A stretch of DNA of 64,000 nt from Myxococcota bacterium (GTDB lineage Bacteria > Myxococcota_A > UBA796 > UBA2385): contig JBIJDH010000001.1 in assembly GCA_044344255.1 (NCBI GenBank), positions 480,001 to 544,000 of the forward strand, given 5' to 3'. Position 1 is the first letter of the stretch. Each line of letters begins with the position of its first letter. A program made the translations under genes and the position numbers. Positions 33,411 through 41,703 of this stretch are shown piece after piece. The notes under the pieces were generated by a model. It did no database searches and had not been told where the DNA came from. It saw only the letters and a program-made list of their open reading frames with translations.

Positions 33411-33556
33411 GGCGCCGCCTAGCCGGTGAGGGGCCCGCCGTCACCGCCGGTGAGCCTCCGCGCACGGGGCCGGGTAGAGTGCGACCAAGCCAACAATGGA
33501 GCCCCCCTGCGCAGCGCCCGCCCGCTCCCCCACCCGCGCGCCCTGGGGCGAGGCCG

Positions 33557-35260
33557 ATGATCGTCGAGCTGCAACGGCCGGGGCACGTCCAGCGCCTCAC
33601 CTACGACGACTTCGAGGCTCGGGTGCGGGAGGGGGCGGTCTCCCCCGAGACGCCGGTGCGCTTCGAGGTCGTCACGGGGGACCGCTTCGTGCCTGCGGGC
33701 GAGCTCGAGCTCTACCGCTCCCTCGCCGCACCCGGCGAGCGCGCCTTCCGCGAGGGCCTCACCAAGCCTGGGATCGCGCTCGCCACGGCCATCCTCGTCG
33801 GGGTGCAGCTCCGCATCTTCTGGCTCGCCCAGGACGGCGAGGCCCGCGGCTGGATGCAGGCCCACCTCGCCAACTCGGGCCCGGCCCTCTTCGAGCAAGG
33901 CGAGGTCTGGCGGCTGCTGACCTACGGCGTCCTCCACTTCGAGCCCGCCCACCTCCTCTTCAACATGTGCTTCCTCGCGTACGCTGGCTACCACCTCGAG
34001 CGGGCGCTCGGCTGGCGGAACCTGCTCGCGCTCTACTTCGGCAGCGTGGTCGCCGGCGGCCTGCTGAGCGTGCTGATGAGCCCCGACCGCCAGAGCATCG
34101 GCGCCAGCGGCGGCGACTTTGGCCTGCTCGGCGCGGCGGTGCTCTTCGGCTGGAAACACTGGGCGGCGATCCCCGCCCGCGCCCGCCAGTACTTCGGCTG
34201 GGCGCTCTTCCCCTACATCCTGACCTCGCTCCTGTCGGGGGCCCAGGCGAGCAACGTCGACAACTGGTGCCACACCGGCGGCCTCCTCGGCGGCGCCCTG
34301 CTGATGGCCCTGCTCGACCCCGAGGTCCTACCCGGGCGGGCGCGGAAGAACCGGCTCGTCCGCCTCGGCCTCGGCGCGGTCATCGGCGCCGCCCTGCTGG
34401 GCCTCGCGACAGGCGGCCTCCGCTTGCTGCCGCTGGCCGACCACGAGGGCACGGGCTGGCGCTTCAAGGCCCCGACCACCTGGACAGAGGGGTGGGCCTT
34501 CACCGGGGATCGAGGGTGGTTCTCCCCCACGGGCCTCGCCAGCCTCTCGGCGGCCACCACCGAGCACAAGGCCCCCCTCACCCTCGACCTCGCGGTGGCG
34601 GCCCTGACCGACCGCCTGCTCACCGGCGGCCCCGAGGCCGAGGTCCTCGCAGACGAGCCCATCCTCCTCGACGGCACGCCCGCGCGCCGGATCCGGGCCC
34701 GCCTCTCCCAGAGCGGCGAGCGCCAGGCGATCACGGCCTGGGTGGTGGTGCGGGGGGTCTACGAGCAGCGCCTCGTCTTCCAATCCACCGAGGCCTCCGC
34801 GGGGCGCTACACCGCCCTCGAGGACGAGATCGCAGCGGCCATCGAGCTCGTCGAGCCTGCGGCGCTCCAAGCAGCGCTCCAAGACGCCCGCACCTGGCCC
34901 ACCGCGCTCGAGCCCTCGATCGCCCTCGCCGAGGCCCTCTCCCGGTACGGCCAGCCCGAGGCCGCCCTGCGGGAGCTCGACCGCGCCCGAGCGCTCTCCC
35001 CCACCGACCCCCGCCCCTGGGTGAGCCGCCTCACCATCACCCAGGTGCACGGCCTCCCCGGCGCCGCCACCCTCGCCCGGGAGGCGCTCGCCGCCGCTCC
35101 CGACGACACCCACCTCCTCACGGTCGCCGCCGAGGCCCTCAAGGCCGACGGGGCCGAGGCCGAGGCCCGCGCGCTGCTCAACGAGGCCTGGGCGCAGCAC
35201 CCCGGCGACCGCCGCCTGAAGCGGATCCGCCTGCGCTGGGGCATGCCCGTCAGCCCCTGA
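33557..35260 (+). CDS. Rhomboid intramembrane serine protease with extra N-terminal, PsbP-like and TPR domains
   Basis: WRLLT, HLLFN, GASGG (Ser), HTGG (His); C-terminal TPR-like helices. Confidence 0.88.
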   Translation: MIVELQRPGHVQRLTYDDFEARVREGAVSPETPVRFEVVTGDRFVPAGELELYRSLAAPGERAFREGLTKPGIALATAILVGVQLRIFWLAQDGEARGWMQAHLANSGPALFEQGEVWRLLTYGVLHFEPAHLLFNMCFLAYAGYHLERALGWRNLLALYFGSVVAGGLLSVLMSPDRQSIGASGGDFGLLGAAVLFGWKHWAAIPARARQYFGWALFPYILTSLLSGAQASNVDNWCHTGGLLGGALLMALLDPEVLPGRARKNRLVRLGLGAVIGAALLGLATGGLRLLPLADHEGTGWRFKAPTTWTEGWAFTGDRGWFSPTGLASLSAATTEHKAPLTLDLAVAALTDRLLTGGPEAEVLADEPILLDGTPARRIRARLSQSGERQAITAWVVVRGVYEQRLVFQSTEASAGRYTALEDEIAAAIELVEPAALQAALQDARTWPTALEPSIALAEALSRYGQPEAALRELDRARALSPTDPRPWVSRLTITQVHGLPGAATLAREALAAAPDDTHLLTVAAEALKADGAEAEARALLNEAWAQHPGDRRLKRIRLRWGMPVSP

Positions 35261-35292
35261 AGCGTCGCCCACCGGAGGGCGCCGACCACGGC

Positions 35293-35369
35293 TTGACCCC
35301 AGAGGGGCGAAACCATACAGCGTTATTGTTGTACAGCGTTCTTGTTGTACAGCAACTCTGCTGTGCAAC
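35293..35369 (+). promoter_or_regulatory. Sigma-70-like promoter overlapped by three 16-bp direct repeats (putative operator)
   Basis: TTGACC(35293)-N17-TACAGC(35316); TACAGCGTTATTGTTG / TACAGCGTTCTTGTTG / TACAGCAACTCTGCTG; AT-rich relative to flanks. Confidence 0.6.
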
Positions 35370-35404
35370 GCGGTCGACGGATCGACAGCGCTCTGGGTGT
35401 CACG

Positions 35405-36310
35405 ATGCACAACGTGGTGGGACCGCCGGTTCGAGGGGATGACTTCTTCGATCGTGAGTCCGAGCAACGGCAGATGTGGCGCTCGCTGGAGCGCCACCAC
35501 GTCCTCCTCTTGGCGCCCCGGCGGGTCGGTAAGACCTCGCTGATGTACCGCCTCGCGGAGCAAGCCCCCGCGAATGGCTTTCGAGCGATCTACGAGAGCG
35601 CGGTCAAGTGTGAGACCGAGCTCGCGCTCGTGAGTCAGCTCTACAAGGCCGTGGCCCTCCAGGACGAGTCCGTCGCTGCGGCCCTCACCGGCGGGCGACT
35701 CGGCCGGCTCGTCGAGCGGGTGAAGGGGTTGAAGGGGCTCGGCGTGGAGCTCGTGCTCAAAGAGATGGCCCCGGAGGACTGGGTCCCCCTCGGTGAGGAG
35801 CTCATCCTGGCCCTTCGCGGCAGCGGCCAGCGGTGGCTCCTGCTCCTGGACGAGCTCCCCGTCTTCGTCGTCCGCCTCTTGGAGCAGGAGAACGGGCGCG
35901 CCCGGGTCCGTCGCCTCCTCGACTGGATGCGTGACGCTCGACAGGGGACGGTCGCGGGCCCGGACTCGTTTCGGTGGCTGCTCGCAGGCTCCATCGGCCT
36001 CGACGCCGTCACTCAGCGGCTCGGCCTCGGCGCTTCGATCAACGATCTCCTCGTCCTGCGGCTCGGCCCGCCCCGGGACGCGCAGGCCCGCGACCTGCTC
36101 AGCGCCTGCGCCCGCGATCCGGAGGGGGCCAGCCGAACGGTCCTGGAGCAGGCCCTCGGCCGACACATCCAGGACCCGGCCACCCGCTCGGGCGACCTCG
36201 CCTGGCTCCTCTCCGTGCTCGAGAACGACGGCTACATCGTGCCCGTCGACGGGAGGCACCGCTTCCGCTCTCCGCTGCTTCAGTCCTACTGGCGCGGGCG
36301 GGCCCCATGA
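35405..36310 (+). CDS. P-loop ATPase (STAND/archaeal-ATPase-like) with short C-terminal wHTH-like region
   Basis: FFDRE pre-Walker motif, Walker A APRRVGKT, Walker B LLLLDE, LLAGSIGL. Confidence 0.8.
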   Translation: MHNVVGPPVRGDDFFDRESEQRQMWRSLERHHVLLLAPRRVGKTSLMYRLAEQAPANGFRAIYESAVKCETELALVSQLYKAVALQDESVAAALTGGRLGRLVERVKGLKGLGVELVLKEMAPEDWVPLGEELILALRGSGQRWLLLLDELPVFVVRLLEQENGRARVRRLLDWMRDARQGTVAGPDSFRWLLAGSIGLDAVTQRLGLGASINDLLVLRLGPPRDAQARDLLSACARDPEGASRTVLEQALGRHIQDPATRSGDLAWLLSVLENDGYIVPVDGRHRFRSPLLQSYWRGRAP

Positions 36311-38058
36311 CCGACCGACCGGGCCCCACGCTCACCGTCTACAACCCCGATCTGCTCTCCGACGCCGACCTGAAGCGGCAATTCGTCGCCCGGCTCGGCC
36401 TCCTCGAACGACTGATAGGCGACCTTCGCGGCGAGGGGGCCTCGCAGCAGCACCACTTGATCCTGGGCCAGCGCGGGATGGGCAAGACCACCCTCCTCCG
36501 CCGCCTCCGCGGGGCCATCCAGGAGGACGAGGCCCTCCGTCAACTCTGGCTCCCGCTCAGCTTCCCCGAAGAACAATACAATGTCTCCCGACTGAGCGAC
36601 CTCTGGGTCAATTGCCTCGACGCCCTCGGCGACGCCCTCGAGCGCAACGGTGACAAGGCGGGCGCCGCAGCGATCGACGCCCTCGTAGACAGCCTCCCGG
36701 AGTCGGAGGAGGCCCGCGGCCGCGCCGCGCTGGACGGCCTCGTCTCCTGGTCGGAGGCGCAGCGCGGGCTGGTGCTGATGATCGACAACGTCGACCTCCT
36801 GCTCAGCCGGCTGGATGCTCGACAGTGGGCCCTCCGGGAGGTGATGAGCGAGCACCGCCACCTCGTCTGGATCGTGGCGAGCGCGGAGCCCCTCGAGTCC
36901 ACCGCCGAATATGGGTCCGCCTTCTACGACTTCTTCGCCATACACGAGCTCCGCGGCCTCGACTACGAGGAGTCGCGGCAGGTGGTGCTCCGACTGGCGC
37001 AGGTCCACAGCACCCCCCAGGTCAGTCGGGTGCTCGACGAGTCGCCCGGACGCTTTCGCGCCCTCCATGTGCTCACCGGGGGCAATCCCCGCACCCTCGT
37101 GCTGCTCTATCAGGTCTTCGCTCACGACGACGCCAGCAGCGTTCATGTCGATCTGGAGCGGCTCCTCGACATGTGCACGCCCCTGTACAAGGCGCGCTTC
37201 GAGTCCCTCTCTGCCCAGGCCCAGCAGCTCACCGACGCCCTCGCCATCGGCTGGGACCCGATGACCGCCGCCGAGGTCGCGACCGCCACCCGCCTGGAGA
37301 TCAACCTCGTCTCCGCCCAGCTCAATCGCCTCGTCACGATGGGGGTGGTGGAGAAGGTGCCCTTGCCGGCCGGGTCGAAGAGCGGCTTTCAGATCGGGGA
37401 GCGCTTCTTCAACATCTGGTACCTGATGCGGGCCAGCCGCCGGGTGCGGCGTCGACTGGAGTGGCTGGTGCGCTTCCTGGAGGTCTATTACGGGCCGGAG
37501 GGCCTCAAGTCACGCGCGGAGCAGCTGCTCGAGCTGGAGGGAGGCCCCAGGCAGGCCGAGCTCGCCTTCGCCTACTCCCGCGCGGTGTCGGAGCCCGGCC
37601 TGTCACGGGCCCTCGACAACTACGCGGTCGACTGGCTGATGAAGGACGAGACAGGGCTTCGGACTCGACTCGGCGAGCTCTTCGATCTGGAGGGCGAGGA
37701 CCGCGCGGTCGGGACGCTGGCGGAACGGAGGGTGATATGGGCCGAATCCTCCCTCTCCCGCCGCTTCATCTCCGAAGGAGGAGAAGATTTTCATTCGCGG
37801 TGCTGGGCGGACATCGTCCTGTTCTTTCGGGAGGCTGTCCGCACGGGTCATGCCCCCGAGGCCCTCCAGCTCCTCGACGAGACCGGCCAGGGCGAGCGCT
37901 GGCGGCCCCTTCGGGAGGCCGTGGCCGCTGTCGCCGCCGGAGATCCCGAGCTGCTCCTCGCCGTGGCCCCGGAGGTCCGGGTGCCGGCGAGCGCGATCCT
38001 CGACGAGCTCTGGCCCTTGGAGGAGCGGCCGGCCCCGAAGAAGAGGCGGCGGCCCTGA
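36307..38058 (+). CDS. STAND-like P-loop ATPase with winged-helix domain
   Basis: Walker A GQRGMGKT, Walker B VLMIDN, TGGNPR (GxP), wHTH MTAAEVA...VSAQLNRLVTMGVVEK; ATGA overlap. Confidence 0.82.
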   Translation: MTDRPGPTLTVYNPDLLSDADLKRQFVARLGLLERLIGDLRGEGASQQHHLILGQRGMGKTTLLRRLRGAIQEDEALRQLWLPLSFPEEQYNVSRLSDLWVNCLDALGDALERNGDKAGAAAIDALVDSLPESEEARGRAALDGLVSWSEAQRGLVLMIDNVDLLLSRLDARQWALREVMSEHRHLVWIVASAEPLESTAEYGSAFYDFFAIHELRGLDYEESRQVVLRLAQVHSTPQVSRVLDESPGRFRALHVLTGGNPRTLVLLYQVFAHDDASSVHVDLERLLDMCTPLYKARFESLSAQAQQLTDALAIGWDPMTAAEVATATRLEINLVSAQLNRLVTMGVVEKVPLPAGSKSGFQIGERFFNIWYLMRASRRVRRRLEWLVRFLEVYYGPEGLKSRAEQLLELEGGPRQAELAFAYSRAVSEPGLSRALDNYAVDWLMKDETGLRTRLGELFDLEGEDRAVGTLAERRVIWAESSLSRRFISEGGEDFHSRCWADIVLFFREAVRTGHAPEALQLLDETGQGERWRPLREAVAAVAAGDPELLLAVAPEVRVPASAILDELWPLEERPAPKKRRRP

Positions 38059-38077
38059 CGTGGCGGAAGGAGCGAGG

Positions 38078-38449
38078 ATGACCACCGAGAGGGAGAGGCG
38101 CTGTGACCGCGCCGGCTGGCTGGTCGGCCCGGGGGGCTCGGTCGCGGACCGGGCCTGGCGGGAGGGCTCACCCCCCTCGGGCTGCGGCAACCTGGTCTGT
38201 GGACGCTGTGGCCGTGCGGTGCGCTCTGTCGCTGGCGCGCTGCTCGCCCGCCGCCCCAGCGCCGCGGAGTGGCTGGAGCTCCACGACGGCGGCGGCTGGT
38301 CTGCCTGGCTGGAGAGCGGACAGGGCAGCCGCGACTTTCGGACCTACCTGTGCGGCTGCCGCGCCTTCCCCGCCAGTCGGGCGGCGGACCTGCAGGAATT
38401 AGCCCTGGACGACGATCTCCGCTGGGCGTGCGCAGGGCACCCTGGCTGA
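38078..38449 (+). CDS. Small Cys-rich hypothetical protein (putative Zn binding)
   Basis: AAGGAG SD; CGNLVCGRC, CGC, WACAGH. Confidence 0.7.
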   Translation: MTTERERRCDRAGWLVGPGGSVADRAWREGSPPSGCGNLVCGRCGRAVRSVAGALLARRPSAAEWLELHDGGGWSAWLESGQGSRDFRTYLCGCRAFPASRAADLQELALDDDLRWACAGHPG

Positions 38450-40096: not shown

Positions 40097-40224
40097 CGAC
40101 GCACCTCCGAGGCGGCATCATGACACGGCACCCCAAGGTCGGCAGCCGGAAGATGGCCGCCGGAAGATGGCCGCCAGGCGGCGCGGCTCGCGCCCTCGGA
40201 GCCGGCCCCAGATATACGGGCCCC

Positions 40225-41703
40225 ATGGAAACCCCGCGGCGGCTCCACACCCCCCGAACCCTCTCTCGAGGCCTCCCGGCCCTCCTCCTCTGCCTGCTGG
40301 CCCTCGCGCTCGGCCTCGGCCTCGGCGCCGCGCCGCCCGAGCCGGGCGCCGAGATCAGCCTCCCTCAGGCCCTCACGGCGAGCTGGAAGCCCGGCCAGGC
40401 GGCGGCTGGGCTCGCCCAGACCTTGAGCCCGATGAGCCCGGTGCGGGTCGAGCTGCCCACCTGGCTGGCTCGGAAGATCACGGACGACACCGCGCTCTTC
40501 TATTTTTCGCCCACCTGTCCGCACTGTCGCCACATCATGCCCGAGGTGAAGTCCCTGCAGGGCAAGGGCGGGCTCCGGTGGCTCGGCGTCGCGGCCGCGG
40601 GGTCCTCGGAGGCCGATCTCGCCGAGTTCAAGGCCACCTTTCAGCCCGGCTTTGACATCCTCATCGACTCCGCCGAGCGCGAGGTGGGCACCACCCTCGC
40701 CGCCGCCTCCACCCCCTCGCTCTACATCGCCCGCCCCGTCTCCGGGGCTGACCTCTCCCAGGCGCGCGCCCCCATCGACATCATCGACGCCTGGTCCCCG
40801 ATGGGCCCGGGGATCGGCAGCGTGATGCTCATCCGCCGCCACCCCAACGACCCCTTCCGCGACTTCCAGGGCTACCTCGGAAACCGCACCTGCACGAGCT
40901 GCCACAGCCAGGAGGGCCTGTCTCACGCCCTCTCGCTGCACGCCATCGCCTATCGCACCCTCTACATGCGCGACCGCGCCGAAGACCAGGCCTGCGTGGG
41001 CTGCCACGTGACCGGGATGGGCCAACCCGGGGGCTTCGTCATCGGCGACCACAGCTCGATGTTGACGGGGGTGGGCTGTGAGGCCTGCCACGGCCCCTCC
41101 GGCCCCCACGACGGCAGCCCCACCGTCGCCACCGAGACCTGCGCCGGCTGCCACGACGCCGAGCACTCCATCGCCTTCTCCCTCGAGAAGGGCGTGCCGC
41201 TCATCGATCACTTCGCCGCCACCGGCATGTCCGAGGCCGACCTCCGCGCGCGCCTCGCCGCGATGGCCGACGGCAGCGCCGAGCGCCCGCTGCTCGCCTT
41301 CCCGAAGGGGCCGACGATGGGCGCGGAGTCTTGTAAGGACTGCCACAAGGCGGTCTTCAAGTCCTGGAAGAAGAGCCCCCACGCCGCCGCGATGAAGAGC
41401 CTCGGCGAGGGGGACGGCGCCAAGCCCGACTGCGCCCGCTGCCACGCCACCGCCACCGCGATGGGCGCCCTGCGCGAGGCCCCGATCACCCTGCCCGAGC
41501 TCCGCACCGACGAGGGGGTGGGCTGCGAGGCCTGTCATGGTTCGGGGGAGGCCCACGTCGCCGCCCCCTCCAAGGACAACATCATCGGGCTCGGCGAGAG
41601 CTGCCCCGAGTGTGTGATCGAGTCGATCTGCACGAGCTGCCACACCCCGAAGTGGGACCCCCGCTGGAGCACAGCGGAGCGGTTGAAGGCGTCCAAACAT
41701 TAA
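40225..41703 (+). CDS. Exported thioredoxin-like domain fused to octaheme c-type cytochrome (two c554-like tetraheme modules)
   Basis: Signal/TM segment; FSPTCPHC; eight CxxCH motifs (CTSCH, CVGCH, CEACH, CAGCH, CKDCH, CARCH, CEACH, CTSCH). Confidence 0.88.
   Translation: METPRRLHTPRTLSRGLPALLLCLLALALGLGLGAAPPEPGAEISLPQALTASWKPGQAAAGLAQTLSPMSPVRVELPTWLARKITDDTALFYFSPTCPHCRHIMPEVKSLQGKGGLRWLGVAAAGSSEADLAEFKATFQPGFDILIDSAEREVGTTLAAASTPSLYIARPVSGADLSQARAPIDIIDAWSPMGPGIGSVMLIRRHPNDPFRDFQGYLGNRTCTSCHSQEGLSHALSLHAIAYRTLYMRDRAEDQACVGCHVTGMGQPGGFVIGDHSSMLTGVGCEACHGPSGPHDGSPTVATETCAGCHDAEHSIAFSLEKGVPLIDHFAATGMSEADLRARLAAMADGSAERPLLAFPKGPTMGAESCKDCHKAVFKSWKKSPHAAAMKSLGEGDGAKPDCARCHATATAMGALREAPITLPELRTDEGVGCEACHGSGEAHVAAPSKDNIIGLGESCPECVIESICTSCHTPKWDPRWSTAERLKASKH

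What the first reader, a model, noticed from the sequence alone, without database searches (positions are those of the whole stretch)
35293..38449. Coupled pair of STAND-like ATPases plus a small Cys-rich protein: candidate undescribed conflict/defence module
Seen: two P-loop ATPases joined by an ATGA overlap (APRRVGKT/LLLLDE and GQRGMGKT/VLMIDN with GxP and wHTH), then 19 bp later a 123-aa protein with CxxC, CGC and CAGH. The unit has its own promoter, sits between a rhomboid and an RsmB-family gene, and looks somewhat less GC-biased than its flanks. Known: STAND NTPases (Avs, NACHT) act as sensors in anti-phage immunity. Inference: a hetero-oligomeric switch in which the second ATPase (Walker B D-N) may be hydrolysis-poor; no nuclease, TIR or SIR2 effector is recognisable, so the output is unknown.
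Basis: partly seen in the sequence, partly recalled or inferred. Interest (0 to 1): 0.72.

Follow-up and report, generated by a model that had tools for sequence, protein, structure and literature searches.

The report
Amputated self-regulated two-ATPase sensor cassette
Two overlapping ATPase genes here are a doubly shortened copy of a widespread, unnamed two-gene cassette that likely acts as a self-repressed invader sensor, while the small cysteine-rich third gene is a separate passenger that is likely an orphan toxin-immunity gene.

Summary
The three ORFs and motifs are real, but they are not one module. ORF1/ORF2 belong to a widespread mobile pair (partner downstream in 77 of 80 genome loci): a ~395-aa STAND/ORC-like ATPase and an ATPase-wHTH-linker-TPR-cap protein, behind tandem 16-bp palindromes that are likely an autorepression operator. 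This scan noted the family before on other DNA (8 notes); I found no paper on it. The window copy is amputated twice in frame: ORF1 lacks its 93-aa lid domain, ORF2 lacks about 370 aa (linker and TPR sensor). Both deletions occur in four independent lake or river metagenomes, yet strain differences are mostly synonymous (ORF2 21 of 26 codons). Nine other genome loci lost the sensor in frame and kept the cap. ORF3 occurs at 0 of 172 pair loci; its family usually sits just behind S-HxxxE-motif toxin-like genes, so it is likely an orphan immunity gene. No enzymatic effector and no defence-island enrichment of close relatives were found; defence is plausible but untested. Verdict: undescribed variant of two-STAND operons, seen here as a likely disarmed, blind copy.

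The parts
35293..35321 (+). Weak promoter-like site (TTGACC, 17 nt, poor -10) whose -10 falls in the first operator unit
   Evidence: Sequence; not called by the scan or the relaxed pattern. In homologues a -35/-10 with the -10 inside the operator occurs in 30 of 128 v mean 1.6 in shuffles.
35317..35364 (.). Operator array: three tandem 16-bp imperfect palindromes, consensus ACAAC-N6-GTTGT; predicted binding site of the ORF2 winged helix
   Evidence: 83 of 128 upstream regions have 2-4 tandem units, 0 of 2560 shuffles; the only tandem array of this motif in the 8.2-Mb genome. One strain lacks exactly 16 nt here.
35405..36310 (+). ORF1 (A): STAND/ORC-like ATPase, 301 aa, lacking the 93-aa helical lid (GxP-equivalent) and first winged-helix helix
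   Evidence: 116 of the 120 best hits are 380-415 aa and 0 of 137 full-span A ORFs in other loci lack more than 27 positions.
36062..36070 (+). Junction of the 279-bp in-frame deletion, at a 9-nt near-repeat (Leu-Gly-Pro at both ends in the 81%-identical relative)
   Evidence: bridged by contigs in 4 of 4 runs from 4 studies.
36307..38058 (+). ORF2 (B): ATPase (Walker B DN), GGNPR helical domain, MarR/ArsR-like winged helix (about 37200-37395), then directly the C-terminal helical cap; linker and TPR array absent
37750..38016 (+). Conserved C-terminal cap (about residues 482-570; P-x3-A and APEVR motifs) joined in frame across the ~370-aa deletion
   Evidence: junction bridged in the four runs.
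38078..38449 (+). ORF3: 123-aa domain with 7 conserved Cys and a His; separate passenger, likely orphan immunity protein of S-HxxxE-motif toxin-like genes
   Evidence: 81 representatives, alignment, context, no cognate toxin-like gene in this genome, 76%-identical paralogue on contig C3.

Best explanation
The two ATPase genes are a doubly shortened copy of a widespread two-gene STAND-type cassette that likely works as a self-repressed guard-and-executor switch against invaders, and the Cys-rich gene is a separate passenger, likely an orphan toxin-immunity gene. In the intact family, B (ATPase-wHTH-TPR-cap) would bind the tandem palindromes over the -10 box and hold the operon and its partner A off; a trigger bound by the variable TPR array would release both, and A, the stand-alone ATPase, would supply a non-enzymatic harmful output by oligomerising with B (on DNA or by spending ATP). 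Losing the sensor while keeping the cap would lock the switch off cheaply. The window copy has lost the sensor and also the lid of A, so it is likely blind and disarmed, and probably persists as a folded repressor. Shown: pair conservation, operator, both deletions, recurrence of cap-keeping deletions, purifying signal, independence of ORF3. Inferred: DNA binding, A-B contact, trigger, toxicity, defence, immunity.
For: Pair: B follows A in 77 of 80 genome loci and A precedes B in 72 of 80 metagenome loci (7 lack room, 1 lacks A). Patchy: 17 of 61 relatives, 19 of 201 in the phylum, 3 of 251 in another class; rhomboid and RsmB genes are direct neighbours in 4 of 24 relatives' loci and none holds the ORFs. 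Architecture: TPR hits in 42 of 72 B C-terminal regions, no enzyme domain in any; MarR/ArsR-type HTH hits in B; folds closest to 2qen/2fna (Z 25.6, rmsd 3.7, 332 aligned). Operator; distant pairs and the second pair in this genome carry other tandem palindromes. Sensor loss: 9 of 69 complete B alleles in the genome set are short with the cap in frame, none short with the cap out of frame, scattered over the tree, several as sisters of full-length B; A is broken in 5 of 17 short-B v 5 of 84 full-B loci (p 0.011). Strain differences: ORF2 21 synonymous of 26 changed codons (p 6e-9), ORF1 4 of 5 (p 0.02). Distant plasmid members sit beside WYL, DUF262, Qat and methylase genes in 2 of 3 regions read.
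Against: No defence-island signal among close relatives. No effector domain, so the harmful output of A is a guess. No phage or viral copy. Seven complete short B alleles have no recognisable cap while A stays intact, so the cap is not always needed; counting them as out-of-frame weakens the bias to p 0.05. The HTH-operator covariation is weak (canonical helix with canonical operator 49 of 68 v 21 of 37) and confounded by kinship. Purifying selection on an A without its lid is hard to square with a dead executor; only 5 codon changes support it, 8 table rows were not shown, and recombination with intact alleles could mimic it. B shows more polarised changes on the window branch (26 v 13, p 0.05), as relaxed selection would give. 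Broken A alleles in metagenome assemblies may be sequence errors.
Confidence: 0.45

Rival explanations
1. The family is a non-defence signalling or transcription switch (MalT/PH0952-like): the TPR array senses a host ligand and the only output is control of its own operon and whatever gene lies downstream; the shortened window copy is a constitutive regulator, here of ORF3.
For: Housekeeping neighbours without recurrence; DNA-binding HTH and operator; no effector; ORF3 follows at 19 bp with a purine-rich spacer.
Against: The operator occurs once in the genome, so there is no regulon; no conserved downstream gene; cross-phylum patchiness and frequent sensor loss.
Confidence: 0.22
2. The window copy is simply a decaying remnant with no function; its synonymous excess reflects older polymorphism or recombination with intact alleles.
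For: Two large deletions remove a catalytic lid and the whole sensor; one other assembly has a further 6-aa deletion in A; a strain lost an operator unit and another altered the -35; faster change in B; a clustered 10-base tract at 36520-36546 suggests recombination.
Against: Both deletions are in frame and shared by all four runs laid; differences flank the ORF1 junction within about 15 nt; no stop or frameshift in the strain contigs laid; 19 of 20 changes outside the tract are synonymous.
Confidence: 0.2
3. The pair is a selfish mobile element whose ORC/TnsC-like ATPases bind iteron-like repeats to promote their own spread or maintenance.
For: Fold matches to Cdc6/Orc1 and TnsC; tandem repeats; insertion between housekeeping genes.
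Against: No recurrent transposase or integrase neighbour; no terminal direct or inverted repeats above control in 63 loci; repeats lie on one side only and over the promoter; only 7 plasmid records match.
Confidence: 0.08
4. One reading: the three genes form one intact module in which the Cys-rich protein is the partner or output of the ATPase pair.
For: Tight spacing and shared orientation; all three are absent from the empty site in relatives.
Against: ORF3 family at 0 of 172 pair loci by profile; in 200 genomes A occurs in 18, the ORF3 family in 11, both in 2 and on different contigs (p 0.26); the family has its own conserved partner.
Confidence: 0.05

Closest known systems
nSTAND2 two-gene STAND operon (Kaur et al. 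2021, PMC8195603; passages and supplement rows read)
   Same: Two adjacent STAND genes, STAND+wHTH followed by STAND+wHTH+TPRs; mobile; predicted hetero-multimer; described as MNS-like.
   Different: No match to PF20702; both Walker A motifs are intact here whereas one nSTAND2 partner is eroded; no HEPN or GT4 effector; a conserved Asp, not Arg, precedes the last core strand in both proteins.
Archaeal ATPase_2 / MNS-type ATPases PABY2304 (2qen) and SSO1545 (2fna)
   Same: Same overall fold (Z 25.6 and 25.4) and the FFDRE...RRxGK signature; weak PF01637 hits in 32 of 81 A proteins.
   Different: Below the Pfam cut-off; 19-20% identity; those are stand-alone proteins of unknown role, with no described TPR partner or operator.
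MNS clade Npun2340/2341 family (named in PMC8195603, citing Leipe et al. 2004, which I could not read)
   Same: MNS-type STAND; the paired name suggests adjacent genes (recalled, not checked).
   Different: No profile or definition was available, so membership is open.
Antiviral STANDs Avs1-21 and bNACHT (Lee et al. 2026, PMC13581612; abstract, section 5 and passages read)
   Same: STAND NTPase with a variable TPR-like C-terminal region.
   Different: Avs are single proteins with N-terminal effectors; this pair has none and has its own operator; no PADLOC or NCBIfam match.
Tox-MCF1-SHE / S-HxxxE family (Zhang et al. 2012, PMC3482391; PMC13439196; passages read), as the partner of the ORF3 family
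   Same: The gene ahead of ORF3 homologues has invariant G-x-S-G and HS-x-x-E, the motif given for that domain.
   Different: No Pfam hit, so the assignment rests on the motif; Zhang et al. list no immunity protein for it; ORF3 here has no such partner.

Membership tests
STAND/ORC-Cdc6-clade NTPase | P-loop core with Walker A and B, helical GxP domain and winged helix | tested here: met
   B and intact A. Window ORF1 lacks the helical GxP domain.
STAND/ORC-Cdc6-clade NTPase | Nucleotide-dependent oligomerisation | not testable with these tools
nSTAND2 operon | Two adjacent STAND genes, second with wHTH and TPRs | tested here: met
   (family); TPRs deleted in the window copy.
nSTAND2 operon | Sequence match to the nSTAND2 profile PF20702 | tested here: not met
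   0 of 81 A and 0 of 81 B members at E 1e-4; none in this genome, though that search had no positive control.
nSTAND2 operon | One partner with eroded NTP-binding motifs, fused to HEPN or GT4 | tested here: not met
   Walker A GK invariant in 111 of 111 of both proteins; no such domain in 72 C-terminal regions.
Avs / bNACHT antiviral STANDs | N-terminal effector domain | tested here: not met
   Both proteins begin at the ATPase; one longer fusion of A only, with ParA-like and TPR regions.
Avs / bNACHT antiviral STANDs | C-terminal repeat sensor | tested here: met
   Family: 42 of 72. Absent from the window ORF2.
Avs / bNACHT antiviral STANDs | Enrichment near defence genes | tested here: inconclusive
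   Close members 4 of 136 neighbours, generic domains; distant plasmid members 2 of 3; no background control was run.
Avs / bNACHT antiviral STANDs | Activation by a phage protein and protection | not testable with these tools
   Needs experiment.
ATPase_2 (PF01637) / MNS | Score above the Pfam gathering cut-off | tested here: not met
   23.8 bits (window) and 32.4 (intact relative) v 33.2.
ATPase_2 (PF01637) / MNS | Fold of 2qen/2fna over the full length | tested here: met
Npun2340/2341 family | Clade definition of Leipe et al. 2004 | not testable with these tools
   Only one paper in the library names it.
Polymorphic-toxin immunity protein (ORF3 family) | Encoded directly behind a toxin-like gene; orphan and arrayed copies | tested here: met
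   10 of 16 non-self loci within 30 nt, one more at 671 nt; 3 further copies in arrays; 1 orphan; 1 at a contig end.
Polymorphic-toxin immunity protein (ORF3 family) | Neutralises the cognate toxin | not testable with these tools
   Needs experiment.

The most novel reading that the evidence does not exclude
An effector-less, self-repressed guard-and-executor STAND pair that hosts repeatedly disarm by cutting out the sensor in frame while keeping an autoinhibitory cap; in this lake lineage the twice-amputated pair has been domesticated as a regulator of an orphan, previously unnamed zinc-binding immunity protein against S-HxxxE toxins.
Probability: 0.13. Interest if true: 0.8.

Novelty: new variant of a known kind. 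Interest (0 to 1): 0.48.

Why it matters
If the family is defensive it would be a bacterial counterpart of paired sensor/helper NLRs with no enzyme output and with built-in autorepression, which differs from the Avs plan. The recurrent cap-keeping sensor deletions are natural mutants that point to the autoinhibitory element and make the model directly testable. The ORF3 family is a candidate immunity protein for S-HxxxE-motif toxins, for which the 2012 survey listed none. Against this, the copy here is damaged, the family has been noted repeatedly by this scan, and no function is shown.

Tried and rejected
PADLOC and NCBIfam gave no meaningful match for the three ORFs. The Pfam RMP hit for ORF3 is below cut-off and eukaryotic: rejected. 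Atlas look-ups for ORF3 and the cap gave no named family; no solved structure matches the ORF3 profile. Assembly artefact as the cause of the deletions: rejected. Regulon: rejected for this genome. Terminal repeats or target duplications: none above control. Phage and viral copies: none found. No RNA holder was listed, which says nothing on expression. Homologue searches with ORF2 and ORF3 in the 5.8-billion-protein set could not be made. My first in-frame/broken classification overcalled 'broken' because alignments ran a few residues past stops; I reclassified by a gap over 60 residues and rechecked with a tighter cap profile; two of the three truly interrupted long alleles end at assembly gaps. 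Seven duplicate loci and loci without 1.3 kb upstream were dropped before the count. The tree is the quick one, 75 rows, B cores under 400 aa left out. Literature: searches found no description of this pair; 10.1101/270033 (passages) is a different, CRISPR-linked family. Six accession strings were absent from 7 readable supplements of PMC13581612, but its clade tables were too large to read, so the family may be among its 589 clades; 12 of 13 supplements of PMC8195603 were searched.
Full report
Observation. The ORFs, motifs, ATGA overlap and 19-bp gap are as described. The block lies between a rhomboid-TPR gene and an RsmB-family gene. Those two genes are direct convergent neighbours in 4 of 24 relatives' loci and none of the 24 holds any of the three ORFs within 1.5 kb, so the block is an insertion. 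Its GC3 is 0.86-0.88 against 0.92-0.95 in four neighbours. No curated defence or NCBI family matches; Pfam gives only AAA_16 above cut-off, for ORF2.

The family. ORF1 has at least 811 relatives. In 80 genome loci found with ORF1, an ORF2-type gene follows in 77; in 80 metagenome loci found with ORF2, an ORF1-type gene precedes in 72, 7 lack room and 1 lacks it. Hosts by record title span Myxococcota, Acidobacteriota, Pseudomonadota, Planctomycetota, Verrucomicrobiota and others. Distribution is patchy: 17 of 61 relatives, 19 of 201 in the phylum, 3 of 251 in another class (one of these is an unpublished genome). This genome has a second, distant pair on contig C54. A (about 395 aa) and B are distant paralogues (probability 97%). 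Intact A models at pLDDT 93 and is closest to the archaeal ATPases 2qen and 2fna; B gives the same top hits, then Cdc6/Orc1. A has an invariant Walker B DE; B has D-N-x-D. B continues with a MarR/ArsR-like winged helix, a helical linker, a TPR array of variable length and a conserved ~90-aa cap. Of 72 B C-terminal regions, 42 hit TPR models at E 1e-8 and none hit an enzyme domain.

The operator. Two to four tandem 16-bp palindromes (ACAAC-N6-GTTGT) occur in 83 of 128 upstream regions and in 0 of 2560 shuffles; the window has three, at 35317-35364, the only such array in the genome. In 30 of 128 regions a -35/-10 pair has its -10 inside the array (1.6 expected), the layout of a repressor site. 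Distant pairs, including the C54 pair, carry different tandem palindromes. Binding by the B winged helix is inferred, not shown, and helix-operator covariation is weak.

The window copy is amputated twice. ORF1 lacks 93 residues present in its 81%-identical relative, between two Leu-Gly-Pro codon runs; this removes the helical lid with the GxP-equivalent and the first winged-helix helix. No other of 137 full-span A ORFs lacks more than 27 positions. ORF2 jumps from residue 481 to the cap, skipping about 370 residues of linker and TPRs. Contigs from four runs of four studies bridge both junctions, two of them from strains with dozens of base differences. Among those differences, changed codons are synonymous in 21 of 26 (ORF2), 4 of 5 (ORF1) and 3 of 4 (ORF3) against about 26% expected; 8 rows were not shown. 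Against the nearest intact relative dN/dS is 0.16-0.17, and B has 26 polarised changes on the window branch against 13. The copy is thus likely maintained, with some relaxation.

Sensor loss recurs. Among 77 B alleles in loci chosen through A alone, 8 run off contigs, 50 are full length, 3 are interrupted, 9 have lost linker and TPRs with the cap kept in frame, and 7 are short with no clear cap. The cap-keeping forms have different breakpoints and are scattered, several as well-supported sisters of full-length B. They keep the winged-helix recognition helix and usually the operator. A is broken more often beside short B (5 of 17) than beside full B (5 of 84). I read this as stepwise disarming: the sensor goes first, the cap and repressor stay, A decays later. 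The seven cap-less alleles with intact A count against a strict need for the cap.

Defence link. Close relatives sit among unrelated housekeeping genes with no recurrent third gene; 4 of 136 immediate neighbours hit PADLOC, through generic helicase, kinase or AAA domains. Of three distant plasmid pairs read, two lie beside WYL, DUF262, Qat, methylase and IS genes. Seven plasmid records and no phage match. Defence therefore rests on architecture, mobility and decay, not on neighbourhood.

ORF3. It heads a family of at least 81 representatives with seven conserved Cys and a His, alone or as an N-terminal domain. It is absent from 172 pair loci and does not co-occur with A beyond chance. In 10 of 16 non-self loci it starts within 30 nt of the end of a gene whose C-terminal domain has invariant G-x-S-G and HS-x-x-E, the motif of Tox-MCF1-SHE, listed without an immunity protein (PMC3482391, passages); S-HxxxE proteins include an ATPase and an AMPylase (PMC13439196, passages). 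This genome has two ORF3-family genes and no such partner. Orphan immunity is the likely role; it is inferred from context only.

Comparison and verdict. The nearest described arrangement is the nSTAND2 operon (PMC8195603), which this fails on profile, motif erosion and effector. It works like a STAND sensor but lacks the Avs effector (PMC13581612). Membership of the Npun2340/2341 family, and presence among the 589 clades of that paper, could not be checked because the sources were unreadable here. Seven literature searches found no description. Eight earlier notes of this scan describe the same family on other DNA; new here are the double in-frame amputation under apparent selection, the recurrent cap-keeping sensor loss, and the separate identity of ORF3. 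Whether A and B bind each other is left open. Novelty: new variant of a known kind; interest 0.48.

Noticed in passing
L237-L240, L244-L246, L248-L251 (relatives' genomes): An unnamed two-gene system in this phylum: a ~350-500+ aa protein ending in an S-HxxxE-motif domain with no Pfam match, directly followed by an ORF3-family Cys-rich protein (often extended by a ~250-aa helical region); some loci have arrays of extra copies.
   Followed up: partly
genome contig C54:91520-94617 (L002, L025): A second, distant ATPase pair (about 413 and 621 aa) with its own different 16-bp-period operator; its B is also short and AT-richer in the C-terminal part.
   Followed up: partly
genome contig C3:550-921 (L024, L247): A 76%-identical paralogue of ORF3, also without a toxin-like partner, behind a beta-helix protein gene.
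   Followed up: partly
window 35253-35332: Strain variation concentrates in the leader: one run has a 14-nt insertion at the rhomboid stop and many substitutions across the -35 region, another lacks one 16-nt operator unit.
   Followed up: no
window 36520-36546: Ten substitutions in 27 bases shared by two other strains, suggesting a short recombination tract in ORF2.
   Followed up: no
P0233: A 991-aa protein in which a full A-type ATPase is fused behind a ParA-like NTPase and TPRs; single record, possibly a read-through.
   Followed up: no
L228:5865-9045: A Segatella plasmid pair with a WYL regulator directly upstream and a B reduced to 298 aa (ATPase plus winged helix only).
   Followed up: no
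window 40120-41703: A multiheme cytochrome c with an N-terminal thioredoxin-like region, conserved next to the RsmB gene in many relatives.
   Followed up: no
window 33506-35260: The flanking rhomboid protease carries a long C-terminal extension ending in TPRs, conserved in relatives.
   Followed up: no
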